In this document: one piece after another, positions 14,696 to 58,798 of the stretch
How positions within the stretch are numbered: position 1 is the first letter of the stretch
Layout of the letters: the number at the start of each line of letters is the position of its first letter
Assembly: GCA_040954595.2 (NCBI GenBank)
Contig: CM082596.2
Location: forward strand, 7,018,791-7,082,790
Direction: 5' to 3'
Source of the DNA: Balanoglossus misakiensis
Lineage: Eukaryota; Animalia; Hemichordata
Length of the DNA: 64,000 nt
Program-made: the position numbers and the translations under genes
Notes under the pieces: generated by a model
Seen by the model: the letters and a program-made list of their open reading frames with translations, nothing else
Told to the model about the DNA's origin: nothing
The model's database searches: none

Positions 14696-15893
14696 TTAGA
14701 AATAACCAGTTCCCTTTTTCATATCAAGATATATCTTCTTTTGCTGGTTATAAATCATTTTGGCGTCTTCGTACAATTTCAAGTCCCATCGGTTTCTACG
14801 TCGGAGCTCCGTCAGTTCGAAGTCGGTGATATTGAGGTCGTGTTTATTCGCGTTGAGATGCGTCTCAATCTTGATCGTCGGTATCCCAAACACGTGACAC
14901 AGCATGTCCTGGGACGTTTTGAAATCCTCCGTCAAGCCGACAAACGCCATCTTGGTGAGGAGGTTGTCCCTGGCGACTAGGTAGTGTTCCAGTTCTATCT
15001 CCGGGATGGTCTTGGCGTCTTTGAGGGCCACCCCGCCGTACCCATCCTCATACGTGGCGTCTACGCTCGGAAAGTCGCCAAACTGCAGAAGCCTTACGTA
15101 AAAATTGTCCATGGCTGGATAGCGGATGTCCGCGGTGTTCAGCAGAAATTCCGTCAGGTTCTCCGATTTCAGGACGTATTCAACGCAGATCTTATGTTGA
15201 CTCGAGCAACGTCGTCGCTTCTGGTCGTAATAGTTAGATAGCAGCCTTGACAGCGGCTCGCGGAACCAGGTCACGTAGGCGAACGGTCGCCCGGGGTACG
15301 CGAAGCGGTGCAGGCCGAACGTTCTCTTCGAGTAGAAGTAAGTCTGTTCGCGAGTCTCGCCGAATGTCCTGCCGATGTCGTAAAAATTCTTGCAGTGGGT
15401 AACGGCGAATTTTCTGACCTTTTCCTCTGTCTTCAGTCCGGGTATCTTGCTCAAGACGCTCTCCACCGAAGTACCGCCCGCCTTCGGCAGGTGGACGAAA
15501 GCCAGGTTGGCGTTTCTGTACAAACCGTCGCCGGGTTCGGCGCCGCCGTTCCGCGCCAAAAAGAAGTTCGGCAATGGCTTCCGACCAATTTCCGCCTCGC
15601 TGTGACAGTTTCTCATGCGCTCCATGAGAACGGAGCAGTTTGCCGACTTTTCCGTTGAAATGAAGCGATCGAGATATTCACAGGAGTGATTGAAACGACC
15701 ACCGTCTCGCTGCGCCCCGAGTTCCCAGGGAACATACCGCGCCGTGGTGGCGGTTTCCGAAGAATCGCCCGTCTGCCCGCGGGGAATTAATTTTGACATC
15801 TCGAATGTCTGTGTACTCGTAGAAACCGACCGTGGCCACGAGTAGAGCGCAGGCGGCGAGCAGACAGGCCAAATGTCGTTGACAACACTTCAT
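14696..15893 (-). CDS. Golgi type II sulfotransferase, HS6ST/Sulfotransfer_2-like, copy A; frameshifted after the signal anchor (pseudogene or assembly error)
   Basis: ORF 14696-15799 has the 5'-PSB motif FVHLPKAGGTS, the 3'-PB motif FREPLSRLLS, MAFVGLTE and N.WDLKLY. The signal anchor MKCCQRHLACLLAACALLVATVGFYEYTDIR (from 15893, homologous to the start of copy B) is in a different frame. Total span is 1198 nt = 3n+1 and no intron signals are evident. Confidence 0.8.
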
Positions 15894-17965: not shown

Positions 17966-19192
17966 CTACCCAGTTCCCTTTTTCATATCAAGATATATCT
18001 TCTTTTGCTGGTTATAAATCATTTTGGCGTCTTCGTACAATTTCAAATCCCACTGGTTTCTGCGTCCGAGCTCCGTGAGTTCGAAGTCGGTGATAGTCAC
18101 GTCGTGTTCATTCGCGTTGAGATGTGTCTCGTTTTTTGCCGGCCGTACCCCAAACACTTGACACAGCATGTCCTGGGACGTTTTGAAATCCTCCGTCAAG
18201 CCGACAAACGCCATCTTGGTGAAGAGATTGTTCCTGGCAGCCAGGTAGTGTTTCTCTTCAATCTTCGGGATGGTCTTGGCGTCTTCAAGCGCCACCCCGC
18301 CGAATCCATCTTCGAACGTGTCGTCTACGCTCGGAAAGTCGCCAAACTGCAGCAGCCGCACGTTGAAATTGTCCATGTCTTGATAGCGAACGTCCGTGGT
18401 CCTGAGCAAGTAATCCGTCAGATTTCTTGACGTCAGGAGGTACTGTTTACAGATTACGTGCCCGTGTGCGCAACGTGTTCTTTTCAAATAGTAATAGGTG
18501 GAGAGGAGTCTTGAGATGGGTTCGCGGAACCACGTCACGTAGGCAAACGGTCGCCGAGGGTAGGCGTAGTGATGCAGGCCAAACGTTCTTTTTGAATACA
18601 AATACGTCTGTTCACGAGTCTTACTGAGTGCTATGGCGGAGCTGAACATGCTCTTGCAGTGGGAAATGGGTGATTTTCGGATTATATTAATCCCCGTTTT
18701 CAGTCCGGGTATCTTCTTCAAAACGCTCTCCACCGAAGTGCCGCCCGCCTTCGGCAGGTGGACGAAAGCCAGGTTGGCGTTCTTGTAGTCGCCGTGGAGG
18801 AGGGCGCGGCGGCTGCGGTTCTGCGCCAAGAAGAAGTTGGGCAACGGGTCCCGGCCGATCGCTGTCCCGTTGTGGCAGCGCCTCATGTGCTCTATGACGA
18901 GAGCGCAGCTTGGCGACCTTGTCTTTGAAGCCAGGCTCTCGATATAACCACACGAGTGGTTGGAACGACCGCGTGCACCGTCGTCACGACCGTCTCCCAG
19001 TTTCCACGGAACAAAGCCCGGGTCAAACCGTGCGGCGGCCGCCGTCGTCGTGTTCTCCAAAGGCACGACCTCTAGCTCTGCCACGTGGACGTGACGCTCA
19101 CCGCGAATGTTGCTGTAGTCGTAGAACACCACCGCCATGGATAGGACACAGAAGACGAACAGACAGACCAAAGTATGTCGAAGGAGCTTCAT
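17966..19192 (-). CDS. Golgi type II sulfotransferase, HS6ST/Sulfotransfer_2-like, copy B, intact 408 aa single-exon CDS
   Basis: N-terminal hydrophobic anchor, then FVHLPKAGGTS, FREPISRLLS, DNFNVRLL, ARNNLFTKMAFVGLTE and NQWDLKLYEDAK. The motif order matches heparan-sulfate 6-O-sulfotransferase-like enzymes. Very similar to copy A in the C-terminal half. Confidence 0.9.
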   Translation of the reverse strand: MKLLRHTLVCLFVFCVLSMAVVFYDYSNIRGERHVHVAELEVVPLENTTTAAAARFDPGFVPWKLGDGRDDGARGRSNHSCGYIESLASKTRSPSCALVIEHMRRCHNGTAIGRDPLPNFFLAQNRSRRALLHGDYKNANLAFVHLPKAGGTSVESVLKKIPGLKTGINIIRKSPISHCKSMFSSAIALSKTREQTYLYSKRTFGLHHYAYPRRPFAYVTWFREPISRLLSTYYYLKRTRCAHGHVICKQYLLTSRNLTDYLLRTTDVRYQDMDNFNVRLLQFGDFPSVDDTFEDGFGGVALEDAKTIPKIEEKHYLAARNNLFTKMAFVGLTEDFKTSQDMLCQVFGVRPAKNETHLNANEHDVTITDFELTELGRRNQWDLKLYEDAKMIYNQQKKIYLDMKKGTG

Positions 19193-19375
19193 ACTGACCA
19201 GTCAATAGTGAACTAGAGTCGTCGATTTAAGTCTATGTTCCTTCCCGAGTTTGCATCACCTGAAATAGTAAACGTACTCGTTTCATAAAGACGTCTCTCA
19301 GATATACCGCTATTAATACCAGATGGCATACCAAATACGTTAGTTATTAATGATCTTGTCAATAATTCTCCATTT

Positions 19376-19540: not shown

Positions 19541-22275
19541 TGATACCAGCCAAAGGATCAATGCGATTGAATTGAAAAATGTGAACATGTGAGACTTCAC
19601 TTGTGCGTCGAGACCACTTAAATTCAATGCAACAAGAAAACTCGAGGCCAGATGTTTAGTAAGTACATGTACACAACTCACAAAGCCGGCGACCTTCCAC
19701 GCAGTTTTATAGGGCGTTCACATTACTAAAAAAAAGGGCTAGCACAAAAGAAAATAGGACGGTGGCCATTCGCATGATCCGACACCGGTTCGTGGTAACT
19801 TTTCATTGGCGGTTGTGCTTGAAACCAAAGGTCAAGTATTTCCTTTATGGAACCAACGTAAGAAGAGAAACCTGTTTGATTTCCCGTCCATGTATTGTAT
19901 TGCAGCGATCGAGTAAACAAGCTATGTACGCCCAGTGTTCTGGTCGGGTTATTTCCCCGCTTTTCGAAGTCTAACTCGTCTCTACTTGAGAAAACTCTAA
20001 CATTTGACGTGACAACGAAATGCAGCTCGTTGGAACAAGATGTGTTCCTCGGACGTTTGATTTTCTTATGTACATTGTATCTGAACTGCTGTCCGTTCAA
20101 GGCCTTTGGCATTGTCCATACACTTGAGTGGCCGCGCCTCGGACCAGCCGACAAGTCGCTTGGCGTTTTGTGGGGTTTTTGCCTTCACAAACATTATCTT
20201 ATTAAGTTTTTCGACATCTACCAATATGACTCTTTACATAATTAAGCCTATAGACCTTGGGCAAGCCTATAGCATTCTCCCAAAACTGTAGTCGCTTTTT
20301 CTTAGGGTTGCATTGACAATCAAGGTTATACGTGACCGTTCTACTCGGTGTCTGTATCTGCGATCTTCCGGGGTGCAGTCTCGATCGCGATCCGCAGCGA
20401 AAACGTGTTCCTGGCAACGAAATGGTGCCTAAAACTTGGTGGTCAGGGCGTTATCATTGACCTAAAGTTGCTCAACAGATAAAAAAAGTACGTACCGCCA
20501 AATCACGGACCCGAGCGCAAATCTGATTTAGCGCCGTGCGCGTATATATACGTATACGCGCATGCCACTGTTTTATATACTGTGCTGGGTTCAGTGCAGC
20601 CGCTGGCTTTGTCTCTAAGGCGTTTTAGAGGCTGTTATTTTTATCAAATCCACACGATACATTTCTGCCCCCAAAATTTGGGTATGGCCACCCGACCACA
20701 TCTTCTGAAAATACTCCCGACACCTTGTGTCCTGCGCGTCTGCTTATAAGGTGAGCGGCGTAGCAGCCTTCGCATACGCTTAGGCGGCAGTGCTAAATTT
20801 GGTATGCAGCCCTAGAGACAATGACAACAAATCTTGATCGACACTACTTCACATAAAAGAACACATTTTTTCGTGTCATATAACACACCCATCTAGCACG
20901 CGTACACAACAAATTCATCAGACGGGTTGCCTAAGACTAGGAAGGAAATCATACGTTCATATATACCTTATGTACATCCGTTTCCATGCAAAATCCGCAA
21001 CGGCGTCTCGTCTCCGTGAAAGAAGAATGAACACGCAAGTCGATGACGTCATCAACAAAATCAGTGACGTTGACAATTGTATAGCTGGCCATGTGAAGTC
21101 GGTAGCACTATTGAATAAGGCCAATAAGGAATTCATCTGATCATCGAGCGCTACATTGAAAAAATATCACGAGCGATCGAAATTTTTCGTAAAATATTTG
21201 CATACGTATACCTGTGCCAAAATTGGACGACATTATACATAAGTACGAAAGCTGATACTGTATTGATATCGATATGCCATGAGGTTTTTCAGCTGAGGAC
21301 AAATCGATAGAATACCATTTTAATTACTTCTTATCTGTGTGCATTTACAAAAATATATTCAAATATCTGTTTGGATCGCTAATTTCTACGGATAATGACT
21401 TGGAGCTCACAAAGGTATTATAATTATACCTCTCGTGTTCCAAGTCTATGTGTACATGACAACAATGGATCAGCAGGGCATTCGTTGGTTGCATATGTAG
21501 CCCACTAATCTTAACGGCCCCGTATTCGTCGACACGGGCATTCTATAGATGTAAACTATAATTATTAACCCCATTTTTCCGCGCATGTAAATGGTAATTC
21601 AGTGGTGACCCCAAAGGGAAGAAAAGATGTCCTTTGTGCCACGGGTTTTAAAAATGCGAGGAGAAAAGAGTGCAGGGCCTGAGGCTGGATGCGAATGACC
21701 GCACATACACCGTACATGCGGTTTAACGTTGACTGTCACGTATCCTGTTCAGTGACCCAATTCTAAGCTGATTTTGTATTCAACCACATGCATTCAACAC
21801 AAAGACTTAATTTTTTTAAAGTATTCCATAGATCGAATATGCATACTAGTACGGGTATTGTGATATGCTTGTTACCGGTGAAGAAAGCTTTCTGATTGGT
21901 TGGGCGGCCAAGGTTCAGTAATTAGAACACGTAGAAGCGATCACACGTAAATGAAACGCAATTCACAGTTTGGCTTTGGAATACAGTCGCAATGGACGGG
22001 AAGTTCGTTAAAACAATTTTTATTTCTGAATTAATACATCTACGGAAATTTATGTCGCAGCTAGAGAGATTGTAGGTGTTCGACATAATGGCGTGTTTTG
22101 TGATCAATTTGCATTTCACCTTATGACCACATATACTGTTGAGTGGTGCGCACAGGGAGAGACCTGGAAAAGAGGATGTGGGTTGGTGGCGCTCTACCGG
22201 CCACGATGCGGTACTTGCATCTTGGAAATTTTCGCGTTCAGCTCAAATTGGCATCTTGTCATTTACCACGACGTT

Positions 22276-22911
22276 ATGGATGGGCTCGCCTCGGAAACCG
22301 ACGCCACCGAGCGGGACCTGGACAAGAGATTCCGGGAGGAGTTTGTCAAGCTGGCCGTGGACTTGGAGGAGAAATGCCGCCAGAAGGCCGCCGCGCACGC
22401 CGATCTCGCCTCCTGGTGGGACCGACTCGGCAACTGGATGGAGCTGGTCGCCGTGGCCATGGGGGTGGTGGGGACCGTTCTGGCGGGCAGCCTGTGGGCC
22501 GAGACGGTGTCCACCACGCCCTGGCTGCGGTCCATCGCCATAGCGACCACCCTGCTGGCCAACGTGCTCCTGTCCATGGTGGCGGTGTTCCACAGCAGCC
22601 CGCACTGCCCGCGCAACCGGAGCCAGTCGCACGCCCGCTCGGCCAACAGGCTGCGGGAGCTGGAGAAGAAGACCGAGACGTGGCGCAGGATCACGCTCGT
22701 CGATCCGGCGGTCAGCGCCGACGTGCTCTTCCTTCAGTACGAAGTCATCCTGCGGGAAAGGTTTTGCGCCGAGGACGAGCTAATCACGCGCTGGGGTCCC
22801 AGTCAGCCCGGTGTGAAGAAAGGAAAGTCGTCCCAGAGGAGCGTGAAGCGATACTGGGGACCAGATAGCGGACCGAACTCCAACTCGCTGGATTTTGTAA
22901 GTTCTGTGTAG
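22276..22911 (+). CDS. SLATT-like (SMODS/SLOG-associated 2TM effector) membrane protein, about 211 aa
   Basis: GC-rich ORF with ATG at 22276, just downstream of a plausible acceptor (ttttcgcgttcag, 22241). Architecture: helix (..KAAAHADLASWWDRL..), two TM segments (about 22435-22500 and 22522-22590), then RSQSHARSANRLRELEKK, which resembles the SLATT 'H..A...Y..L' helix. The family call is from memory of the pattern. A GTAAGT at 22897 could mean the C-terminus is spliced. Confidence 0.65.
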   Translation: MDGLASETDATERDLDKRFREEFVKLAVDLEEKCRQKAAAHADLASWWDRLGNWMELVAVAMGVVGTVLAGSLWAETVSTTPWLRSIAIATTLLANVLLSMVAVFHSSPHCPRNRSQSHARSANRLRELEKKTETWRRITLVDPAVSADVLFLQYEVILRERFCAEDELITRWGPSQPGVKKGKSSQRSVKRYWGPDSGPNSNSLDFVSSV

Positions 22912-25544: not shown

Positions 25545-26300
25545 ATGGGTACAAAATCGTCCAAATCTGTCAAACTGGGGTCAACGTCCGTCAAGATATT
25601 CAAAGACAGAGACTCGGGATATGTTACATTGGACCTCAAAGACAAGGAATTAGACCAGTTGCCGCCCCGGGTGTGCCGCCAAAAGAAGCTGCAAGTTTTG
25701 GACTTGAGTCACAACCAACTGCAGACGTTACCAGTGGAGATTATCCGATTGGAGAAACTCAGAGCGTTGTTACTTTACTCCAACCAGTTTCAAGTGGTGC
25801 CGAGGTGTGCCTTTGAGCTGCGCAGGCTCGTCGAGCTGGTGCTCGCCAAGAACAAGATATCGGCGGTCCCGACCGAAATCCGACACCTGTCCAATCTGAC
25901 AGTTTTGTCTCTCAGTGGGAACTGCCTCGAGGATTTCCCCGTGGTGCTGTGCTGTGTCGAGCTCAGCGGTTTAGTAAAACTGGATTTGGGACACAACAAA
26001 ATCAGATACGTGCCGAACAACATCAGCAAACTTGTCTACTTGGAGACGTTTATAATCTCAGACAACGAGGTCGAACTTGTGTCCGATTCGATATGCAAAC
26101 TGGCCAGGATGACGGTGCTGCACCTGCACAACAACAGGCTGACGTCACTTCCGAGCAAGATGGCGACGCGGATGGCGAAATTGGAGGAGATTAGTTTCCA
26201 CGGCAATGACTTGCCTGGTGAAATCAGTAAAGTTGTGTCACGAGGGGTCGAGGGGCTAAGAGAATATGAATTGCAGCCAAGAAAAGAAGCCAAGAAATAG
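25545..26300 (+). CDS. Stand-alone leucine-rich-repeat protein (about 9 x 23-aa LRRs, 251 aa) with N-myristoylation motif
   Basis: Kozak context caccATGg with an in-frame stop upstream at 25524. Starts MGTKSSK (G2, S6, K7). LxxLxLxxNxLxxLP repeats, then a C-terminal cap (GNDLPGEISKVVSRGVEGLREY). Confidence 0.9.
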   Translation: MGTKSSKSVKLGSTSVKIFKDRDSGYVTLDLKDKELDQLPPRVCRQKKLQVLDLSHNQLQTLPVEIIRLEKLRALLLYSNQFQVVPRCAFELRRLVELVLAKNKISAVPTEIRHLSNLTVLSLSGNCLEDFPVVLCCVELSGLVKLDLGHNKIRYVPNNISKLVYLETFIISDNEVELVSDSICKLARMTVLHLHNNRLTSLPSKMATRMAKLEEISFHGNDLPGEISKVVSRGVEGLREYELQPRKEAKK

Positions 26301-26879: not shown

Positions 26880-28140
26880 ACTCGAGGTTCTACCTTACAA
26901 AGTCTTATTTTTAGTCGATTCGATGATAATTTCTCATTAAAAATTAACAATTCTCGCTCTATAGCTCTCTCATATCATCAAGGTTCTTAAATAGGCAGTT
27001 TTATGCATAGCCGTGGTTCTTACCGAAAAATCGTGGTTCTTACGTTATGCAGCCCACAAAGTCAAAATTTTTCAAGGTTCTAACTTACAAAGTCTTAACT
27101 TTAGTTTATGCAATGATAATTTCTCATTAAAAATTAACAATTACCGCTCTCTGATATCATCAAGGTGCTTAGATAGGGAGTTTCATGCATAGCCGTGGTT
27201 CTTACCAAAAAATCGTGGTTCTTACCGAAAAATCGTGGTTCTTACGTTATACAGCCTACAAAGTCAAAAATTTTCAAGACTCTAGCTTACAAAGTCTTAA
27301 CTTTAGTTTATGCAATGATAATTTCTCTTTAAAAATTAACTATTCTCGCTCTATAGAACCTTGATGATCTCCGCCATGTATAAAATCCTATTTAAGAACC
27401 TTGATGATCTCCGCCATGTGTAAAATCCTATTTAAGAACCTTGATGATCTCCGCCATGTATACAATCCTATTTAAGAACCTTGATGATCTCCGCCATGTA
27501 TAAAATCCTATTTAAGAACCTTGATGATCTCCGCCATGTATAAAATCCTATTTAAGAACCTTGATGATCATCGCCATGTATAAAATCCTATTTAAGAACC
27601 TTGATGATATCGGCCATGTATAAAATCCTATTTAAGAACCTTGATGATCTCCGCCATGTATAAAATCCTATTTAAGAACCTTGATGATCTCCGCCATGTA
27701 TAAAATCCTATTTAAGAACCTTGATGATCTCCGCCATGTATAAAATCCTATTTAAGAACCTTGATGATCTCCGCCATGTATAAAATCCTATTTAAGAACC
27801 TTGATGATATCGGCCATGTATAAAATCCTATTTAAGAACCTTGATGATCTCCGCCATGTATAAAATCCTATTTAAGAACCTTGATGATCTCCGCCGAGGT
27901 CCTACCAAAAATTGAGGTTCTTACGTTTTACAGCCTAAAAAGTTAAAAATACTGATGTTCTAGCTTACAAAGAAAATATTTTTAGTCGATGTGATGATAA
28001 TTTCTCATTATTAATTAGCATCTATCGTAATTAATCTGTCCGATATCATCAAGGTTCTTAAATAGGATGTTATACATGGCCGATGTCATCAAGGTTTTCA
28101 GATGATAATTGCACATTAAAATTTACAAACTATCGTAATT
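26880..28140. repeat. Complex satellite with an approximately 190-200-bp unit, enclosing an inverted 40-bp array
   Basis: Units beginning 'aggttcta.cttacaaagtctta' at about 26885, 27075 and 27277, plus a diverged one near 27955, with internal 'cgtggttcttac' subrepeats. Confidence 0.8.
27355..27896. repeat. 40-bp minisatellite, about 13.5 near-identical copies (agaaccttgatgatctccgccatgtataaaatcctattta)
   Basis: Exact 40-bp periodicity read directly; no unique spacers. Confidence 0.95.
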
Positions 28141-29906
28141 TATCTCTCCAACCTCTCCTGACATGTACATGCCAAAATCACCCTTGGTGACGCCTCGATC
28201 TATTTAAAACACGTCACAGGGTGCCATTTTGAAGTCGTTCGCACTGAGTGCTGGCAGCTGGTCTCTGCACTTTCCACAATTTTCACCAGAAATCTCAAGT
28301 GTGCAAGGTAAGCTTGAGTCTTAAGATATCGGGGCACAAACGTATATATTTTATAAACACAAAGATTGTGTTAACGAGGGAGCCAATGGACCGAGAGACT
28401 TTCAGGTGCAGTGCACTAGTGGAATGGCATTGCAACACTTCCCTCTTTAAATCAGTCGCCATATTTGATAGCTTTCGCACTTTTGTGTCGCTGCTAGAAC
28501 AAACGAATTTGCAAACAATCCTGCACTAACAACAAGTAGGTAAGATTAAGATATGTCCGACTCGTAACAACCACAAATTTCTTAACCATTTTCCAGTGGG
28601 CTTGTGTGAATATTACTGGCTGGTTTGTATTTATTACACCTGTACCGATTACTGTTAAATTGTACAATAGTTATTATTCCTGCTCAAAGCCTACCGTGTG
28701 TATTATTACCGTACAATTGCAGAACAACTCGACAGTTAAAATCCGGGTGTGTGCAGGTAACCGAGAACATTATAAGGAAGTTGGTTAGGATTTTGGTGTT
28801 TCATATCTAGGTGTCAGACAGAATTTATCCAGGGCGGGGTGGCTGTTGGGGATGTTGACTTGTTCGCAAGAACTAGACAGGAACAAGTCTGTTTTCTCTC
28901 TCTCCAAAGAATGGCTTGTTTGAAGTCGGTACATATAAAGTTTACAACTAGAACCAAAAACCAAAAATACATGAGCTTTAGTTGCGACTTGTTCATCTAC
29001 TTTCTTTCTGGGTTATTTATGTCTAATTCCCTGCAAATCTCCGTTTATTAGACAATGTGTAGAATATCCAGGCATTGTCCCGCAATCCGTCCTGATGGCC
29101 GTATGGGTCACTAAACCTGATTATTAGCACAATAGTTAGTCCTCAAAAGTGGATTGTATTTAATGTTTTGTCAAGTGACGTACAGTGTATGTCTGTCATT
29201 TGCCCTGCTTTTAGGGAGACTTTTCGTACCAACAACAAACGTGTGATACTTGCCCCCCTCCCCCGCTAATGATTCTTGAGCCCTCAAGGAAGTAGAACCT
29301 ATTTTTCGAGACACGTAGCACCATCATTGGGAATTTATAACTTCAGTATCTTGGGCGTAAATCGCCCGGCAGGCTAAACAATTGGGATCAAAGTTTAAGA
29401 AGTCTGCTGCTGTGATTGACGAGAAATGCGGCTATTAAACAATCAGGACACTTTGGGTGAGGGAGACTGTTCTAGAGAGATCCATGTCAGTCTGCCTGCC
29501 TGCGGCGATGGCGTAGAAATTTTATTACCTAGATACAGCAAATATTACGATAATATTATGATTTTATTACATAGATATGAACATCGTATGATCAAGTAGA
29601 AGCCATTGAAATTTCTAATTTTAAATGATGACTCATTGTAAGAAAGCTGACTAATGGGATTTGTACAATATATATAAGAGTGATGTACACCTTTCTACAG
29701 ATTCAGATGGGAGATCGGATGAGATTCACATCGGAGCTTGATTATTAAAGACTTGGTTGAAGATTGGAACTTGAATACTTGGTGTCTGCCTCAGTTACTA
29801 AAAAGTATTACGATCCTGAGTGGTATCTCGACTGAACGGACTCCACGGACTGACAGTGAATGAGGGTCTAGGGTGAAGACGGCGACAAATTAGGAGCTGG
29901 TAACAC

Positions 29907-30143: not shown

Positions 30144-30293
30144 TTATCCTTAGCTCAACATTTGCTAAATCATCAGAAAGTTTCGCATTTGATTATATAC
30201 ATGAAAACACTGTCCAACAATATTTTGTTAGTTAGAGTTCTCATAATGGGAATAAACGTCAGAATTTGTCATGTTTATGTGTTTACAGGAATC

Positions 30294-32328
30294 ATGGAGG
30301 CAGTTTGGGACCAAACAGCTAAGAAGTTCGACTTCAGTGCCTCTCACGTCGGCAGTGTACCTGCAGACCTCTGGACAAAGTACAAGGACGCCAAAGTTGT
30401 GAACTTGTCAAGCAACAAACTACGAACACTGCCAGACCAGCTGAGGAAACTGACAAACGTCGAGGAGCTCTACCTTGACCACAACCAATTCGACTACTTT
30501 CCACGCGTCATCTGCCAGATGAAGAGTCTGAAAATACTCCATCTTGGATACAATAATATAAAATATATCCCGGTGGAGATTTCAAACTTGCAGCAGCTGC
30601 ATGAACTGAATCTATCGAACAATGAGATCGCTTTCATCCCACACGAGCTTTGTTCTCTTAAAGAGCTTCAGCGACTCGATCTACAAAGGAACAAGATAGT
30701 CAAGCTTCCTGACAATCTAGGGGAACTTGAGAAGCTACAAGTCCTACTGTTGTCAAATGGACATTCGACTGAGGATAAGAATCGACTGTCTGAACTTCCT
30801 GACAGCATATGCAAGTTGCAACGCCTGCAATCATTGGACGTCAGCGGAAATAAACTCACCACTCTGCCAATCGGCGTGCAGGAACTTAAATATTTGCACA
30901 CAGTCGATTTTTCCGACAATCCATTTTGCAATGGTGACCCCCTGCAGTGCCACCAGAGTCGCAAAAATGCTCAGATGTGTGTTGAAAAAGTCCTGCACTA
31001 TGTTTCATATAAATTTGAGCGATATTCTATGAGCAATAAACCACGAGGATTGGCTGTAATAATAAATAACCAACACTTCAAAGGCTTGCCCGAACGTGTC
31101 GGCACAGAACATGATGAGCGTAAGTAGCCATCAAAATATTATGAAACTTATAACATTTGTACGGCTTCATGACATTGTTTTTTCAAGATTGTTAAAGGCT
31201 CTACTGTTTTCACTACAGTGAACTTGATTTGAACCAATATATCTTTTAACGTAGTTGCTCTTGAGTTTACACTTGGATGACATGGAAGAGTATATTTGCG
31301 CCTAGAGTAAACCATAATATCGAAAGTTTGCAAAATAAGGACATTACTTCTGTTAAAAATTCTAATAGTACTTGAAGCATTCTCGATGTTGATAAGCTAC
31401 TAGTATATGACATTTTTGAAAATGAGGTAGTTTTTGCTCATCAGCTGTTCGTATTTTTGCAGGACGGCTGGTGGAGCTGTTTGGGAAATTGCATTTCACG
31501 GTAAAAGTACATCGTGACCAAAGCATTCAGCAAATGGACGACGTGATGCGGGATGCCAGTAGGAGCAGCCATGAAAAGCACGACTGCCTCGTAGTTTGCA
31601 TCATGTCTCATGGGGTTGGCGACAAGATCTTCGGCAGTGACGACCAAGGTATACATATACATGATCTAACAAGATGGTTCAAGGCAAGCATGTGCCTTTC
31701 CCTTGCTGGAAAACCGAAGATATTCTTCATTCAAGCGTGCAAGGGAAGCGAACGCATGACAGGAGTGACCACGGATGAGGCGTGTCCAGTTGACGCAATC
31801 ACCTTTCCGAACCAAACCCCGGATGTAGGAGATTTCCTCATAGGCATGTCGACGGTTCCAGGTTATGTTTCATACAGAGAACGTCGAACTGGAACTTGGT
31901 ATATCCAAACTCTAGTAGATGTAATGGAAAAGTATGCCAGCTACGAAACTCTCCCAGCTATTCTAGAAAGGGTTGCTAAACAAGTTGGCGAGATGTCGAC
32001 AGACAAGTCGGCAAAGAAGACGAAAACCAAAAGCAAGGCGGCAGAGAATACGAAAACCGGAAGCAAGACGACACAGAATACGAAAACCGGAAGCAAGACG
32101 ACACAGAATACGAAAACCGGAAGCAAGACGACACAGAATACGAAAACCGGAAGCAAGACGACACAGAATACGAAAACCGAAGACAAGACGGCTCAGAATA
32201 CGAAAACCGAAGACAAGACGGCTCAGAATACGAAAACCGAAGACAAGACGGCTCAGAATACGACAGCTGAAACTCAAATGTCATCGCATTTTAGCACCCT
32301 CAGAAAGAAGCTGTTCTTGACGTACTGA
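30294..32328 (+). CDS. LRR-caspase fusion (N-terminal LRRs + caspase-8-like C14A domain), about 563 aa, 2 coding exons
   Basis: Exon 30294-31119 (donor GTAAGT, phase 1) joins exon 31463-32328 (acceptor tttttgcag) in frame: ...GTEHDE-R-RLVELF. It has 8-9 LRRs, then YSMSNKPRGLAVIINN, R.GT..D, SHG (31606-31614), GKPKIFFIQACKG (QACKG at 31732-31746), DFL...ST.PGYVSYR...GTWYIQTL and a C-terminal STLRKKLF, as in caspase-8. Confidence 0.92.
32011..32262 (+). repeat. Coding 30-bp minisatellite (about 8.5 units; NTKTGSKTTQ / NTKTEDKTAQ) inside the caspase small subunit
   Basis: Exact 30-bp periodicity, in frame, between the last helix and QMSSHFSTLRKKL. Confidence 0.95.
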
Positions 32329-32516: not shown

Positions 32517-32619
32517 CAATCTGATTAAAATCAGATGTAGGGAACGGCGACGTGGTTTTTATGCTGTCGCCTCACAAAAAAAACGTCGCCGTTCCCTACA
32601 TCTGATTTTAATCAGATTG
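32517..32619. mobile_element. 103-bp fold-back MITE with perfect 37-bp TIRs and a 9-bp target-site duplication (Mutator-like)
   Basis: Arms 32517-32553 and 32583-32619 are exact reverse complements; tgcagcaat occurs at both 32508-32516 and 32620-32628. Confidence 0.9.
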
Positions 32620-35600
32620 TGCAGCAATATGTATTAAGTCGTGTCCCATTTGGCCATTCACTCGTGAATTTCCATTTGGTTGGTGAAACATGAACCTTTA
32701 CCAATGTTAACACGATTACAACTATAAATTCAAATAATTGCATTTGCATAAAATTTTCAACATTCTTATCTCGGGGTACATTTATTGAACCCCCCTCTGA
32801 ACTGGTCATTTTGTTCTGTTCAGATGTACAGTATCAATTTCTCTCATGAAAGACAGCAAGTTCGTTTACTACGTTTTGGAGTTTGGCGGAATTGAATTGA
32901 ATTGAATGCAACACTACCAAAACTGCAGCAGCAAATTACGCGCTATTCAGCACAGTAAAAAAACGAGAAAATGTTCATAGTTGAGGGTCAAAAGTTTGTT
33001 TTTTTATCAGATGGCACACGTAATATTAAACCAGGGCGCATAATATACATATACTCTCTTTTCAAATTAACAGTTCAGAAATAGATTGAAGTCTTCCGAC
33101 AGTAAATGTAGATGCTTTTTCCGCTTGTTGCGAAATCTCGAAAAACGTGTTTATTACCGTACCATGAGTTGCTAGCCAAAATGCAAGTCAAAATGTGTTT
33201 GAAACTAGAATGGGGCGATGTATTGTTTGTCCAGTGTCACATGAGAATGCCCCCCCCCCCCCCCAGCTTAAAAACTCCCTAGCCACGCGAGATCTCACAA
33301 GGTCTCGTGGTGTTCGGAAAATGGCCTATTATACGAAGTATGAAAAAGATGAACTTACATGTACCAGGTAGTCCCGAGCAGTGCAAAGATAACGTACTGT
33401 CCGTAGCTTCACCATTATTTTTGCCGTCCAACAGGTTGAAGTTGACGTACAGGTTATCCTTCAGGTAGTTCATCATCATCGGCAATCAAGTTGTTACGTT
33501 GCTGCTGTTTTCTCTAAGCTATGGATATTTACAAATACTTTAGCCATCAAGCGCTGGTCAGCTAGGAGAACCGTGGCTATTTCGGACAGAACAGCATGTT
33601 TCTGTTGAAATAAACGTGGTTATATTCGCGTCAATAAAATTCGTGTCTTTCAATAAAAGCATCGTGCTCTATCAGTAAATTTTCACAGCACTAAGCCGAG
33701 CACTAGACATGGCAAAAATGGTAGAGGATAGCCAGCAGTTAAAACAGTTGAATTCAAGCCGCGATTCCACGCCCACTAAACACCACGTTTACCTTAGCGG
33801 TCACGCCCACCACGTGTAGGGAAGGATATTTACGTGTTTCAAACTTGTCGCCCAGTGCACGGCGATGCGATCCGAAATTCCCGAACAGAACAAGTGAAAG
33901 TTATCAGAGACTCGTCATAGATTACCTGTTTGCCTCTTTAAAGACCTTGGCACGCGATTTTCACTTGAATTTACGGAGCTGAGCTGCGCCGAACAGTGTC
34001 GATTTTGCGGCCATGCGGTAGACAGTATTGCGTAATGACCTGCACGATCTGTTTTTTTTTTTTGTTTGAGTATCATGTTGTCGTCAGCATTTCAGGTGCC
34101 ACATTGGCGATTAAAAATAACATCTCTGGTTCTTTACTTGTATAAATATATAAATTGTTGCCGGCAACGGAAGTAAACGGCATGACCTGGAGTGTGACCT
34201 TATTTACGCACAGCGCGGCCATTTTGTATTTGGTTCATCATATTTGCATGTAGGAACGCACTTGCAATAGTAGCCAGGTGTAAGAGGACTATACCACCTG
34301 TGCTCAGCGTGGTGGCCAATGTATACAGAGATTAAAAAAACAATATCCCAAAGTATTTATAAACCCACAGAAAGTTTGATATTCCTGTACAAACCTTTGA
34401 TAAGTCAATGAAGCCGATATAGTTACTTAATTTAAAATTTAGAATCTTAAAATTGCAAACATCTCGCACAACCCAAGATAGACGGCTAGCATTTTATTAT
34501 ATTGTAAAACTTCTCGCAGGGTCTACGGCCTGTTATACTGAAACAAACATATAGCATCATCATTAAATTTTTATTCATATATTAAAGTTTGTTGAAGTTG
34601 CATATACATGTACTACTAATTTAATACCATATAACCTTAGCTCTATCGTTACAAGTCAAGATACATTTAAATAAATACATAGATCATTAAAATTAAGTTT
34701 CTTTGAGATTTAAAATATTATCCCTATAAGGGGGCAAAGATACCAATGTATGTGTTTTTGTATATGTTTTATAAGAACAGTAAAGTCTTGATGAAACATA
34801 CACTGGACTGAAACTTACCAGCAACTGTACCCTCCAAATCAACATACGTGTATAATGAACTAACTTAGCCAGTCCCAGGTTTTGGTACTTGCAAGGTTCG
34901 ACTTTAGTATTACACCAGACGGTACTTTGCCCCTTCCATCAAGCAAAACTAAAAAATACACATTTCATCATCAAACCCATCGAATACTTCCTATACTTGA
35001 AAAACAACAATCCTTGTTAAGTTGAACGCATGCCCTTGTTTTTGACTATATGTACTTGTAACAAACCCTTAATCTCACCTTTTGAAATAATTTAGCAATT
35101 CAAATGAAAGTACGGGACACAGGCATTACCTGCATATATAGAAATAATAGAAATACATAACTGATATAAACTTACAAAATATAATGAAATACATCGTTAT
35201 AATGTTGATTTGACATAAAATCTTTACAACCTAGTTGTCACATTCCATAGAAAGTAGGTCCTAGAATAGAAGTAATTTTTTTATAGATAGTTTACCAAAA
35301 TAACACAGACTGGTGGATTATTTGCAGGAATTGAAATCCAAATTTTTTCTTGACATGCCTTCTGACAGTTGTAGTACCTTCATATCCGGGCAGGAAATGG
35401 CAAGACACAATTATACTTTATCAACTGAACTTTATCACAAAGTATCAAATAGCTGGTTTTTACTTGATTGATTGTACTAGCACTTTACTTAATTTGTGAT
35501 TGTTTCAATCAATGTTTGATTGCATAAGTGAGCATTGTTATCTGATTTTAATTGATTTATTGATTGATTGACGGTTGCCTGACTAACTGATTGACCCATT

Positions 35601-36446: not shown

Positions 36447-39400
36447 TTACTCGCTCCCCCACAGAGCGTAGAGGGTTCTCAGGGCTCCGTGCAGTTCCGA
36501 CATGCAGGGGTCCGCTAGTTGCAGTCTCTCTTCTCCAGTGGGCGACTTGACGACCTCGTAGCCCAGGCTCTGGACGAAGATTCTGGCCGGGCCCGGGGAG
36601 GCGCGGAAGAGCTCTTTGACGGTGGGGTCTTCGAGTGACGGACAGAAGCCGGTGTCCACAGTCTCTTTCACCTGGGGGAGCAGAACAGGAAGTTAGGGTT
36701 GCCCACAATCCTTTACTACTGATCAGTATAAATGAGAAACAACTTTCATGTGGCAAAGTTTCACTCTGTACTTGAGTTTTTTTTGGAATAAGCACACAGT
36801 TTGAATTCAAGGACAATCTCCCTCCTGAGAGTTACTACACTTGCAGGCCTGCAGTAACTATCCCATTCAGGCAACAACCACTACCCACAACATTTCACGA
36901 GGGAACTTACCAAATGGAAGACCAACTTGTAGAGGTCCCCGTGCCACTCATAAAGTGCTTTACACTGCTCATCGGACAATTCTGAAGAAGAAAAAAAACA
37001 TTGAGAATGTTTTAAAGGCAATAGATCGTCTCACGCGCATGCACGTTACCGTAACTTCCCAGCAAATTTTCTGTTCGATGCATTCAAATAGTGGACTGCC
37101 TTCACTTCCTTCCATATTTCATGCGCACCCAAGCTGGTGTCTTTTCCCGATCTCCGATACAGATTATGGTCGCCGCCATCTTCTCTGTTGTTAGGACAGT
37201 CTTGAAATGTCAGACTAGTTGAGCAAACAGTACTGAATGCCGTGAGACATTACCTAACATGGCAGCTAGAACACAGTGGAACGCTCGTAGGAGATCGCCC
37301 TCGTCTTCATCTGGGAAGATCACTTTTTCTGCCTGGAAATTTGGAAGAAGAAATAATTGATTAGTTTCAGGCTTTGTGCAGACATGAAAACATGTCCAGC
37401 AAAAACCACCTCAATGGCAAAGACTTGTGACTTGACGCGCCAGTTGAGTTGGTACCCCTGTTGACAAACATGCACACTTTTACACATTCATCTCATTATA
37501 AGGGCACAAATAGATGACCTGGACTACTTACTGTGAAGGAGTACTTGATCTTTTGCAGGAATTCTTTCCACTGCACAACCTGGCCATCCAGTTTTTCCGA
37601 CACGAGACTGAGATCTTGTTCCAATGTGGTCTTCTCGCTCTCGTTGACATTGCTGTGACCTAGCCCAACCTGAAATTTGAAAAGGTGAGAGAGAAAATCT
37701 AGGTGAGATTTTACCCAACTTTCAGCCTTTGCATCACAGACATGGTTGAAATTTCCCCTCGTCAGTGAATGTCTAAGGTCAAGGTTAAGATAGCGGAGTA
37801 TGAGGGCACTGCATTGTTCCATTGCAGTAAACACGGCTCTGTGTTATATGACTGCTATGATTAATTGTGAAGACACGGTAGGGGTATAACAATTGAGTAT
37901 GAGGGCGCTACACCATTCAACTGCACGAAACAGTACTCTGTATTATATGACCAGCACACATGGAAGTAGAAAAGAAATAAAGCTCCAACTGACGACTGAG
38001 GCCAGAAAAATAACGGTACGTACAATTTGTTCCAGGTCACCAATGACATAGGGACGTCCCAACAGCGAATGCAGCCAATGAGAGAGCCAGTATCTTTCCA
38101 CAAACTCCACAAATTCCAACCCGGTGATTGGTTTAAACATGTCGTACAGATCTGGATCTGTTAGCCAAAAGAAACAAATTAAACAGAATGTTAATCACAC
38201 TCAAACAAAATCACTAATATTTCCATTCAACTCCTTGGGGAGCAAACAACTGCTCACATGTGCGGCCGTTGTATCGGCACAGCAATCTCTGTCCTACCAG
38301 GTACCCATTTCTCCTGGGTGGGGAGAGGCAATGAGAAGCAAAATGCCTTGCCAAAGGACACAACACCACAGCCATGCCGGGGCTCCAGATCCTTCGATCA
38401 TGAGTCCAATGCTCTAACCACTAGACTATGATGCCTCTAGACTCTCTCACAGCCCCTCTCGCCGTCCATGCAGGCTTATGGACTGATTGCATGTGTGCCC
38501 GGCGCTACACAACACCATATGGGGCTTCTCCTTTGCTAAACGGTCGAAGGCGCATCAGTGAAGAGCCTTGTAGTGAACCGTGGGCTGTGAGAGAGTCTAC
38601 GACGCCTCCTACTCAAGTGGCAAGAAACAAACTCACCAGTCGGTTCAGCTTCGGCTTCATCTTCAAACGGATTATCTGTCTCGTCGTCTTCGCCGTCTAT
38701 CACCGTCACCATCTTGGGTTCTGGTTTCGGAAGAACGAAGCCGCCGTCGCCCTCACCCAGGATAAGTAGCTTCACTTTCCCGTCCATGGATATTTGCAGC
38801 TCGGAGACGTGGTACGCTATGGGCGTGTTGGCAGGGATGAGGAGGGAACGAAGTTTTTCGTTGTCAATAGTAACATCCTCTTCTCCCTGAAAAACAAACA
38901 AACAGATGACTTAAATTAAAATTCAAGCAAACAGAAAATAGTTTGCATGGAGAAACTCCTCACCACACATTATTCAATCTAATATGCATCATGAACAGTT
39001 GAAATGTGTTTGTGGGTGGGACTAGGTATACAAAGAATTACGGCGATTTTCAACCTCAATAAGATGTGGTCAAACATAATGAATATTGTTTTCTAGCTTG
39101 ATTAGGCTAACAAAAACATACACAAGCTAAGATATACTTCTAACCCTGGAAACGTTAACAAATTAAACAGTTAAAAATAATGATGACAGGTTACACTGGG
39201 TAGCTTGTGTCCTTCTGTTCATCTTCAAAGTCTGACTAACCTTGCTATTAGATGTCCCATGAGGAAGCTTGAAAACTTTCTCCGGTCAAACAATTTTCTC
39301 TACCTCTCTCTCTCTCTCAGCATATAGCATGTATAAAGCATATAATTCACGAAAAAAAAACAGAATCATTTCCTGGTTTACAACCAGTCAAGTGCACCAT

Positions 39401-40860
39401 CACCCTTACCTCCGTCTGGACTGAAACAGGCACCTCCACATCTTCTATGCCATCGCGCATGACATGAGTGACCAGCCTGCTGTCCTTCGATGGGGACAAC
39501 ACACCAACAACCACGCACAGGACGTTGCGATAATTCTCGTGTACTTCTTTCACGAAGGGGTGATTCAGGTTCAGGGACCTAATGAAAAAGACCACTACTA
39601 CATTACTAAGAATGTTTTTATCTAAACGTGGTCACTCGGTCGGTATTCGTGTACCTAGACTTTCTGGCTAATATTCTACAGACAGAACTTCACCCCCAGT
39701 ACAGTGACCTCTGTGACATGGACGACTGATATAGACTCAGGCCACACAACATGCCTGGCAAAGCATTGTTTGCTCTGTTCAATAGTAAAACAGTAATTAT
39801 GTCTTATCAGTACAACAGTGCCATATCATGGATGGAGTTCATGCCACTTGACTTGTTAACAAGTCATAACATGGGCGTACCTACCACACGGGTACATCCA
39901 TGGTTATAGTAGTACCGTACATGTGTGCCCTCTACGTGTGACATTATCACTGTTATTAGCATTGAATGCAATGGACAAATATCACAGATTTCAGTACATG
40001 CCTGTAACACAGTCTGATCAGTACCTGTAACAGTCCCTGAGAAACACCTATGTTTTAATGGACCTATAAAAATTGGTCAGGTACCAGGGGTGTGTGGACA
40101 GGTTTGAATCAGGCCTGGCATTACAGGAATGTATAGTAATACAGTGATATAATTTCTAACTGTGATCACACATCTGAAACACTGGTGCGCGAACAATAAT
40201 GTGACAGGGCTGAGGATACATGGTCTGAAAAATTGTAAGATTTCAGGGCTGTATATTTCAGAAAAATGGACCAATTTTGATGAGAGAAATGAATACATTA
40301 CAGGCATAATTGTGTGTACATTACACATCCAGCTATTCCTATATACCAAATGTTGTATCAAGGTCTGTACAAGACCTGTCACAGGGACGATTTTTTTGCT
40401 GTGTATCAGAATTTCCGCTAGTTCAGTTCCTCATTTTTTTTATCACGACCTACCTGTTCATCAACGCTTGCTGCAGTACGGGGATATTGACCTTCTCTTT
40501 GGCTATCGTGCCCAGATTTGACATGACGTGCACGGCGTCCTCCCCGCCCACCTCGAGCCCGACTTCGCTGAGGACCTTTCCGCCGATCTTGCCCTTGGCG
40601 TCGAACTTGGCGCTGTCCTCGAACTCGGTGAGATCCTCTTTGGAGACGGGAACATCGAGGGGCTTGTCGTTGTTCTCCAAGAGCTGTTGGATGGTGAACG
40701 GGCTCGGGGTGTACTTCGGCGACCGCCAGAACCAGCGGCGCTTCTTCTTGACGACCACATGGAAGCAGCAACAGTCCTTCGCCTGGTCGAGGGACGGCAC
40801 CGGCAGCAGGGTGTCCTCCCCGAGCGATTTCGATAATTTCTTTGCCACCGCAGTAAACAT
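36447..40860 (-). CDS. GSDME: Gasdermin, GSDME/DFNA5-like, 8 coding exons, 490 aa
   Basis: Exons 40454-40860, 39410-39578, 38637-38886, 38024-38157, 37532-37669, 37254-37332, 36911-36981 and 36447-36671. All introns are GT-AG and phase-compatible, giving 1473 nt. MFTAVAKKL...LLPVPSL...VVKKKRRWFWRSPKY matches the GSDME N-terminus (MFAKATRNF...VTKKKRFWCWQRPKY). LLIPANTPIAYHVSEL...DG...GGF ends the pore domain, followed by an acidic linker and a helical C-domain with AAMLELSDEQ. The family call is firm; exact orthology is inferred. Confidence 0.88.
38221..38437 (-). mobile_element. tRNA-derived SINE in gasdermin intron 3
   Basis: The minus strand starts gaggcatcatagtctagtggttagagcattggactc (tRNA A-box-like head). 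It continues with gtgtcctttggcaaggca, ctctccccacccaggagaaatgggtacc and ctccccaaggagttg, blocks typical of conserved-core invertebrate SINE2 families. Confidence 0.7.

Positions 40861-43176: not shown

Positions 43177-58798
<15,622 letters not shown>

What the first reader, a model, noticed from the sequence alone, without database searches (positions are those of the whole stretch)
30294..32328. LRR-caspase: caspase-8-like protease whose death-fold prodomain is replaced by leucine-rich repeats
Seen: the LRRs and the start of the caspase large subunit (YSMSNKPRGLAVIINN) lie in one uninterrupted exon, so the fusion is not a splicing guess. The catalytic His (SHG) and Cys (QACKG) are present, as are the Asp-specificity residues (Arg of R.GT..D, Gln of QAC, Arg of SYR). 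Established: canonical initiator and inflammatory caspases use CARD or DED prodomains and need a separate sensor. VSYR...GTWYIQ.L and TLRKKL are caspase-8-like. Inference: this is a single-chain sensor-protease activated by ligand-induced dimerisation or by release of LRR autoinhibition.
Basis: partly seen in the sequence, partly recalled or inferred. Interest (0 to 1): 0.85.

Follow-up and report, generated by a model that had tools for sequence, protein, structure and literature searches.

The report
Acorn-worm LRR-caspase beside a gasdermin
A genome that is likely an acorn worm's has an intact gene fusing a leucine-rich-repeat domain to a caspase protease, a layout already listed for amphioxus in 2008, and it sits directly beside a gasdermin pore gene, so it is predicted to be a one-piece sensor-protease that may trigger lytic cell death.

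Summary
Two exons (30294-31119, 31463-32328; GT-AG intron of 343 nt) give a 563-residue open frame: eight LRRs, then a caspase domain with His325, Cys368 and the Asp-pocket residues. No DED-like exon was found in the window.

The layout is not new. 'LRRs-caspase' was listed for amphioxus in 2008 with the same sensor-shortcut idea (PMC2575513). I found LRR+caspase proteins in Saccoglossus, Ptychodera and Glandiceps (3 of the 150 nearest caspases). In the papers searched, none has been tested.

'Caspase-8-like' fits the motifs and best hits, but the tree does not settle it. The nearest orthologue (Ptychodera) is annotated without LRRs.

An intact eight-exon gasdermin with an Asp-rich linker (DETD) faces the gene 4.1 kb away. 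A caspase-less LRR gene 4 kb upstream aligns gap-free with the prodomain of the Glandiceps LRR-caspase.

Best reading: an initiator-type caspase whose LRRs replace the death fold and drive dimerisation (0.55). The neighbouring gasdermin is a candidate substrate (about 0.25), which would echo fungal and bacterial repeat-protease/gasdermin clusters.

The parts
30294..31119 (+). LRR-caspase coding exon 1: N-cap, 8 LRRs (repeat 6 has a 7-residue insert), C-cap, and the first 32 residues of the caspase including Arg268
31120..31462 (+). 343-nt phase-1 GT-AG intron inside the caspase domain
   Evidence: sequence; gap-free alignment to P0001 across the junction
31463..32328 (+). LRR-caspase coding exon 2: His325 (31609), Cys368 (31738), inter-subunit sites VTTD380 and CPVD386, Arg414, last strand SHFST (Phe552), stop
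32004..32263 (+). In-frame 30-bp minisatellite (8.7 copies) giving a Thr/Lys-rich loop, net charge +10, modelled with very low confidence (likely disordered); absent from the Ptychodera orthologue
29701..29899 (+). Candidate non-coding 5' exon (AG before, GT after, stops in all three frames); inferred only
25545..26300 (+). Single-exon LRR-only gene, 251 aa, starting Met-Gly (possible myristoylation site; motif recalled). It aligns without gaps over 220 aa (33%) to the LRR prodomain of the Glandiceps LRR-caspase
36447..40860 (-). Gasdermin gene, 8 exons (40860-40454, 39578-39410, 38886-38637, 38157-38024, 37669-37532, 37332-37254, 36981-36911, 36671-36447), 490 aa, open frame, 7 of 7 introns GT-AG. 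It converges on the LRR-caspase, with 4118 bp between the stop codons. The linker has 8 Asp, including TVID|G 256 and DETD|N 263

Best explanation
The gene encodes, in one chain, eight leucine-rich repeats and a caspase domain with intact catalytic and Asp-pocket residues; it is likely an initiator-type caspase that would stay monomeric until the LRRs bind a cytosolic ligand or scaffold, bring two protease domains together and let them cut themselves at VTTD380/CPVD386. Shown: the architecture, the residues, the absence of a DED-like exon in the window, and relatives with the same layout in three acorn-worm genera. Inferred: (1) activation by proximity, from Phe at the dimer-strand position of caspase-9 Phe404; (2) the LRRs stay attached to the large subunit, because no Asp lies between residue 216 and the caspase start at 244; (3) the outcome is cell death, either through effector caspases or through the gasdermin encoded next door, whose linker offers DETD and TVID sites. 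The ligand is unknown.
For: Intact residues and frame. A confident caspase fold in which the last strand docks despite the insert (pLDDT above 90 there); the best structural match is caspase-8. LRR+C14 occurs in 3 of the 150 nearest representatives: Saccoglossus, Ptychodera and Glandiceps. The Ptychodera protein P0099 begins at the same place with the same N-cap (WD..KK.D, LWTKYKDAK), which supports the ATG at 30294. One clade for all six family rows is not rejected, and the constrained tree scores 9.15 lnL higher than the free tree (p-AU 0.611). The last-strand pentamer is SHFST in both the window protein and its orthologue, against CIVSM in effector-type P0129; Phe at that position impedes constitutive dimerisation in caspase-9 (PMC1088972 passages). 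The inter-subunit site is VTTD here, IETD in the orthologue and VETD in Saccoglossus. The Glandiceps protein models as two well-folded domains with a low-confidence linker.
Against: The nearest orthologue (Ptychodera XP_070570941.1; 63% over the exon-2 query, 100/100 sister) is annotated as a 236-aa protein starting at the Met equal to Met246, without LRRs. This is either a truncated model or a real loss. The LRRs are a generic type whose nearest matches are scaffold proteins (LRRD1, SHOC2; SHOC2, LRRC57, RSU1 clusters, all under 0.9), so nothing shows ligand sensing. Ser549 for a conserved Pro and the 95-residue loop may mark relaxed selection. Paralogues P0099 and P0057 have an effector-like Val at the dimer position, so the family is not uniform. 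The tree does not exclude grouping with effector-type caspases (p-AU 0.195).
Confidence: 0.55

Rival explanations
1. The three adjacent genes would form one pyroptosis module: the LRR-caspase senses and cuts the convergent gasdermin at DETD263 or TVID256, and the caspase-less LRR protein acts as a decoy or co-sensor. This extends the best explanation rather than excluding it.
For: No ORF over 81 aa lies between the two stop codons, which are 4118 bp apart. The gasdermin is intact, and an xE.D-NPF site is kept in all 3 of 3 acorn-worm gasdermins compared: DETD, SEVD, DEPD. Amphioxus GSDME is activated by caspase cleavage at D253 (PMC10155998 section 7). Fungal gasdermins are clustered with repeat-fused proteases (PMC12881547 passages). 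The LRR-only gene matches an LRR-caspase prodomain gap-free. In Ptychodera the orthologous caspase, the gasdermin and two other family caspases share one 44,037,996-bp contig length. A rough chance of about 0.5% per genome that some caspase neighbours a gasdermin, assuming 2 gasdermins, about 40 caspases and 30,000 genes (my assumptions, after the fact).
Against: Adjacency is seen in one genome only; positions in Ptychodera could not be read, and sharing a chromosome is expected from kinship. The Saccoglossus gasdermin (contig 552,588 bp) and its LRR-caspase (380,760 bp) lie on different contigs, though that caspase is a paralogue. DETD is also an effector-caspase-type site (recalled), so the neighbour need not be the enzyme. 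One paper classes the hemichordate gasdermin as PJVK, for which it reports no pyroptotic function (PMC11508797 passages).
Confidence: 0.25
2. The LRR domain is an autoinhibitory lid or a substrate-recruiting and localising scaffold of SHOC2/RSU1 type rather than a ligand sensor, and the caspase has a narrow, possibly non-lethal signalling role.
For: The nearest LRR matches are cytoplasmic scaffolds. In the window protein the LRR cap abuts the caspase with no Asp site to release it.
Against: The linker between LRR and caspase is about 35 residues here but 60 to 250 residues in the three relatives, which argues against a fixed docked geometry. The Glandiceps model has a low-confidence linker and pTM 0.50.
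Confidence: 0.25
3. This copy is a decaying or enzymatically dead paralogue (a decoy like cFLIP), or the main product starts at Met246 and lacks the LRRs.
For: Minisatellite expansion within the protease domain and loss of a conserved Pro. The orthologue is annotated from the Met246-equivalent.
Against: There is no stop or frameshift in 1692 nt, the repeat unit keeps the frame, and all catalytic and pocket residues are kept. The ATG at 30294 has A at -3 and G at +4 and matches the start of P0099.
Confidence: 0.15
4. The true protein is longer at the N-terminus: the upstream LRR-only gene splices into this exon and gives a membrane-anchored LRR-LRR-caspase.
For: Two GT donors near the end of the LRR-only frame (26218, 26227) are phase 1, matching the phase-1 acceptor at 30289.
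Against: The LRR-only frame runs on through a cap helix to its own stop. A candidate 5' exon at 29701-29899 has an in-frame stop. P0099 starts where this protein starts. A phase match arises one time in three by chance.
Confidence: 0.07

Closest known systems
Amphioxus 'LRRs-caspase' hybrid genes (Zhang et al. 2008, PMC2575513; passages, sections 9 and 10, and a supplement search were read)
   Same: LRRs joined directly to a caspase domain, proposed there as a direct link from pathogen recognition to apoptosis.
   Different: There they are predicted gene models. The cDNA section names no LRR-caspase, and the 2 of 5 'caspase' rows shown from its table (plus a Death-caspase row in their context) were other fusions. 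Their motif is QACXG with X = R, Q or G; here it is K. Orthology was not tested, as the supplementary .doc files were not readable. No gasdermin link is mentioned in what I read.
Uncharacterised acorn-worm LRR-caspases: Saccoglossus XP_006816015.1, Ptychodera XP_070569699.1, Glandiceps XP_077999233.1
   Same: Same domain order. The N-cap is shared with the Ptychodera protein. A single clade is not rejected.
   Different: They have longer linkers, 6 to 10 repeats, a different dimer strand and no minisatellite loop. They are paralogues rather than the direct orthologue.
Caspase-8/-10 (DED initiator caspases)
   Same: Best named protein hits and best structural match; VSYR..GTWYIQ and TLRKKL motifs; (V/I)xTD inter-subunit site.
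   Different: No DEDs, so no FADD recruitment. QACKG for QACQG, and SHFST for QPTFT on the last strand. The best sequence hit in the PDB is zebrafish caspase-3 (125 bits against 121).
Fungal and bacterial repeat-protease plus gasdermin gene clusters (PMC12881547, passages)
   Same: A protease fused directly to superstructure-forming repeats is encoded next to a gasdermin.
   Different: Those use TPR, WD40 or ANK repeats with CHAT or S8 proteases. Here the repeats are LRRs, the protease is a true metazoan caspase and the gasdermin is of the E/PJVK type. Function and conserved linkage are not shown.
NLR inflammasomes and PIDD1-RAIDD-caspase-2 (recalled)
   Same: An LRR domain upstream of caspase activation.
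   Different: These are multi-protein systems with NACHT or death-domain adaptors; this protein has no NTPase and no death fold.

Membership tests
Caspases (MEROPS C14A) | His-Cys dyad in SHG and QACxG | tested here: met
   His325, Cys368
Caspases (MEROPS C14A) | Arg/Gln/Arg pocket for P1 Asp | tested here: met
   Arg268, Gln366, Arg414; the roles of these positions are recalled
Caspases (MEROPS C14A) | Caspase fold | tested here: met
   Model of exon 2 has mean pLDDT 74.6 with the core above 90; Foldseek gives caspase-8 at E 3e-20
Caspases (MEROPS C14A) | Measured Asp-specific cleavage | not testable with these tools
   Needs an assay
Caspase-8/-10 subfamily | Tandem N-terminal DEDs | tested here: not met
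   A DED profile found nothing better than E 5.6 in 2155 six-frame pieces of the window; a control protein not in the profile scored E 6e-24
Caspase-8/-10 subfamily | Protease domain falls in the DED-caspase clade | tested here: inconclusive
   It lies in an unresolved polytomy among DED caspases, outside the starred effector clade; grouping with effectors is not rejected, p-AU 0.195. No caspase-1, -2 or -9 references were deliberately included
Caspase-8/-10 subfamily | QACQG motif and QPTFT-type last strand | tested here: not met
   QACKG and SHFST, both shared with the Ptychodera orthologue
LRRs-caspase (PMC2575513) | LRRs joined directly to a caspase domain, with no NACHT or death fold | tested here: met
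LRRs-caspase (PMC2575513) | Common descent with the amphioxus proteins | not testable with these tools
   No amphioxus LRR-caspase sequence was retrieved; the 3 LRR hits among 150 are all hemichordate
NLR sensors | Central NACHT or NB-ARC domain | tested here: not met
   Pfam finds only LRR and C14, and the two domains abut
Repeat-protease plus gasdermin clusters | Repeat-fused protease gene adjacent to a gasdermin gene | tested here: met
Repeat-protease plus gasdermin clusters | Linkage conserved across genomes | tested here: inconclusive
Repeat-protease plus gasdermin clusters | The protease cleaves and activates the linked gasdermin | not testable with these tools
   Candidate sites only

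The most novel reading that the evidence does not exclude
This locus is an animal counterpart of the fungal and bacterial sensor-protease/gasdermin gene clusters: a one-chain LRR-caspase that senses infection and directly cuts the gasdermin encoded tail-to-tail with it, tuned by a caspase-less LRR paralogue next door. That is pyroptosis with no NLR, no adaptor and no death fold.
Probability: 0.22. Interest if true: 0.85.

Novelty: new member of a known kind. Interest (0 to 1): 0.5.

Why it matters
How invertebrates without an ASC/caspase-1 inflammasome switch on gasdermins is an open question (raised in PMC10155998, passage). The LRR-caspase shortcut was proposed in 2008, and I found no test of it in the papers searched. 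This locus offers a compact enzyme, relatives in three acorn-worm genera, a candidate substrate and a candidate decoy in 16 kb, so the idea can be tested by simple co-expression. If the gasdermin link holds, animals would have re-evolved the minimal repeat-protease/gasdermin module known from fungi and bacteria. If not, this is one more shuffled invertebrate caspase.

Tried and rejected
RNA runs: no RNA holder listed, so no reads were laid. No whole genome is held, so paralogues and synteny in this genome were not searched.

Complex prediction of the LRR domain against the caspase pieces: no answer, score 0.00 in both runs, alignments not used.

A full-length search with the Saccoglossus protein returned only itself and 7 proteins without a caspase domain (LRR, some LRR-Roc-COR). 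The Atlas had no LRR+caspase cluster among those shown; it holds only clusters of 50 or more members.

An upstream DED exon was rejected. A coding role for the 29701-29899 exon was rejected because of stops in all frames. RefSeq accession order was judged unusable for adjacency in Ptychodera.

Trees: 13 of 173 rows with under 75% domain cover were dropped; the careful tree used 78 of the 160 remaining rows, chosen by hand, under LG+G4 without a mixture model.

Ten literature searches found only PMC2575513 naming this architecture; the library lacks most subscription journals. PMC8195603, PMC11508797 and PMC11251625 (passages; section 9 of the last) showed no LRR-caspase in what was displayed. 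PMC10210618 has no mention of caspase in its main text, and its supplement could not be read; it might show whether the Saccoglossus gene is induced. Earlier scan findings: none by sequence, place or the first word search.

Full report
OBSERVATION. The + strand frame 30294-31119 is open and holds both the LRRs and the first 32 residues of a caspase. A 343-nt GT-AG intron follows, and exon 2 (31463-32328) completes the protease. The joined frame is 563 residues with no internal stop, and the junction aligns without a gap to a Saccoglossus caspase. Pfam gives LRR_8 at E 5e-25 for exon 1 and Peptidase_C14 at E 6.8e-43 for exon 2. There are eight repeats, the sixth with a 7-residue insert. Arg268, His325, Gln366, Cys368, Arg414 and Trp421 are in place. 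A model of exon 2 built on a 54-row alignment folds as a caspase, with the last strand confident and the repeat loop below pLDDT 50; its best structural match is caspase-8. A DED profile found nothing in six frames of the window, while it detected a control protein not used to build it. The junction is supported by sequence and homology, not by a transcript.

A 30-bp coding minisatellite of 8.7 copies stretches the loop before the last strand to 95 residues, against 10 in the nearest orthologue. Ser549 replaces a Pro kept in at least 90% of 54 rows. A phase-1 acceptor lies 5 nt before the ATG. The nearest candidate upstream exon (29701-29899) has stops in all frames, so it is likely untranslated.

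ORGANISM AND FAMILY. The neighbouring gasdermin is 72% identical over 490 residues to a Ptychodera flava protein. The caspase is 60-63% identical to another. The window is therefore likely from an acorn worm (inference). The best named hit by caspase domain alone was Saccoglossus XP_006816015.1, itself LRR+C14. Among the 150 nearest representatives (148 scanned, the other two known), 3 carry LRRs, 55 a DED and 6 a CARD. The LRR ones are from Saccoglossus, Ptychodera (XP_070569699.1) and Glandiceps (XP_077999233.1). The Ptychodera LRR-caspase shares the window protein's N-cap and start position. Against this, the direct orthologue, Ptychodera XP_070570941.1 (sister at 100/100), is annotated as 236 residues starting at the Met246-equivalent, without LRRs; I could not see its DNA.

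TREES. In a 78-row tree (78 of 160 rows, chosen by hand) the window protein sits in an unresolved polytomy of DED caspases, outside the starred effector clade. It is joined at 78/86 with the Saccoglossus and two Ptychodera family members. Holding all six family rows together gave a tree 9.15 lnL better than the free search, p-AU 0.611, so one origin is allowed but not shown. Grouping with effector-type caspases was not rejected either (23.5 lnL worse, p-AU 0.195). The quick 160-row tree split the family into three places. By sequence, the best PDB hit is zebrafish caspase-3, narrowly ahead of caspase-8. 'Caspase-8-like' is a fair description by motifs, not a proven ancestry.

PRIOR ART. Zhang et al. 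2008 (PMC2575513; passages, sections 9 and 10, supplement search) list 'LRRs-caspase' among amphioxus hybrid genes. They write that LRRs joined to a caspase could link pathogen recognition directly to apoptosis. Their cDNA section names TNFR-caspase and death-caspase but no LRR-caspase; the supplementary .doc files with the examples were not readable. Ten searches found no other paper naming the architecture (listed under Tried and rejected).

MECHANISM. The five residues of the last strand that set dimerisation are CIVSM in dimeric caspase-3 and GCFNF in monomeric caspase-9, where Phe404 appears to impede dimer formation (PMC1088972, passages). The window protein and its orthologue have SHFST, with Phe at that position, which suggests a monomer that needs induced proximity (inference). 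The inter-subunit linker has VTTD380 and CPVD386, where the orthologue has IETD and Saccoglossus VETD. No Asp lies between residue 216 and the caspase start, so the LRRs would stay on the mature enzyme. Linker length differs widely in the family, and the Glandiceps protein models as two folded domains with a low-confidence linker. That fits tethered clustering better than a fixed inhibitory lid. I therefore commit, at 0.55, to an initiator-type caspase activated when its LRRs cluster on a ligand or scaffold. The LRRs are of a generic cytoplasmic type, so sensing is not shown.

THE NEIGHBOURHOOD. On the - strand, 4118 bp from the caspase stop codon and with no ORF above 81 residues between them, lies a gasdermin gene (PF04598, E 2e-18 for exon 1). 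Eight exons with 7 of 7 GT-AG introns give an open 490-residue frame. Its linker holds eight Asp, including TVID|G and DETD|N; the xE.D-NPF site is kept in the Ptychodera and Saccoglossus gasdermins. Amphioxus GSDME is activated by caspase cleavage at D253 (PMC10155998, section 7). In fungi, gasdermin genes are clustered with proteases fused to TPR, WD40 or ANK repeats, and similar clusters are reported in bacteria (PMC12881547, passages). Upstream, a single-exon LRR-only gene (25545-26300) aligns with no gap over 220 residues to the prodomain of the Glandiceps LRR-caspase, including its irregular 25- and 24-residue repeats. That was its best match among 11 LRR proteins compared, and it looks like a caspase-less paralogue. 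In Ptychodera the orthologous caspase, the gasdermin and two more family caspases are on a contig of the same length, but adjacency could not be read. In Saccoglossus the gasdermin and a paralogous LRR-caspase are on different contigs. One paper calls the hemichordate gasdermin PJVK and notes no pyroptotic function for PJVK (PMC11508797, passages). I put a direct enzyme-substrate module at about 0.25.

VERDICT. The gene is real and intact, and it belongs to a small acorn-worm family with an architecture first listed for amphioxus. It is a caspase by sequence and fold. It fails the DED test for caspase-8 membership, though it likely works like an initiator caspase. Novelty of the gene itself is modest (new member of a known but, as far as I found, untested kind). 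The added value is the gasdermin and LRR-only neighbours, which make the 2008 hypothesis directly testable. Interest 0.5. Earlier scan notes on LRR plus caspase-like fusions in bacteria and protists are unchecked leads and were not used as support.

Noticed in passing
window 14696-15889 and 17966-19201 (-): Two tandem single-exon Sulfotransfer_2 genes (E about 2e-5 each), probably a local duplication.
   Followed up: partly
window 22030-22911 (+): GC-rich ORF of 293 codons stop to stop with two hydrophobic stretches and no Pfam hit at E 0.01. Its two-helix layout recalls SLATT-type membrane effectors (resemblance from memory, untested); it lies 2.6 kb upstream of the LRR-only gene.
   Followed up: partly
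window about 44500-56300 (-): Multi-exon carbamoyl-phosphate synthetase gene (CPSase_L_D1 and GATase hits), the neighbour on the other side of the gasdermin.
   Followed up: partly
window 27355-27895 and 26885-27225: A 40-bp minisatellite (13.5 copies) and a 182-bp repeat between the LRR-only gene and the LRR-caspase.
   Followed up: no
window 32524-32630: An inverted-repeat element just downstream of the caspase stop codon, seen by eye (arms of about 30 bp); possibly a small transposon remnant.
   Followed up: no
proteins P0018-P0022, P0024: Metagenome proteins of 600-665 aa joining a caspase domain with PF15009 (recalled as TMEM173/STING); used only as outgroup.
   Followed up: no
proteins P0055, P0073, P0082, P0112, P0153: Other shuffled caspases among the nearest 150: kinase-, ankyrin-, Macro- and BIR-caspase fusions. 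Prodomain swapping on this caspase type is recurrent.
   Followed up: no
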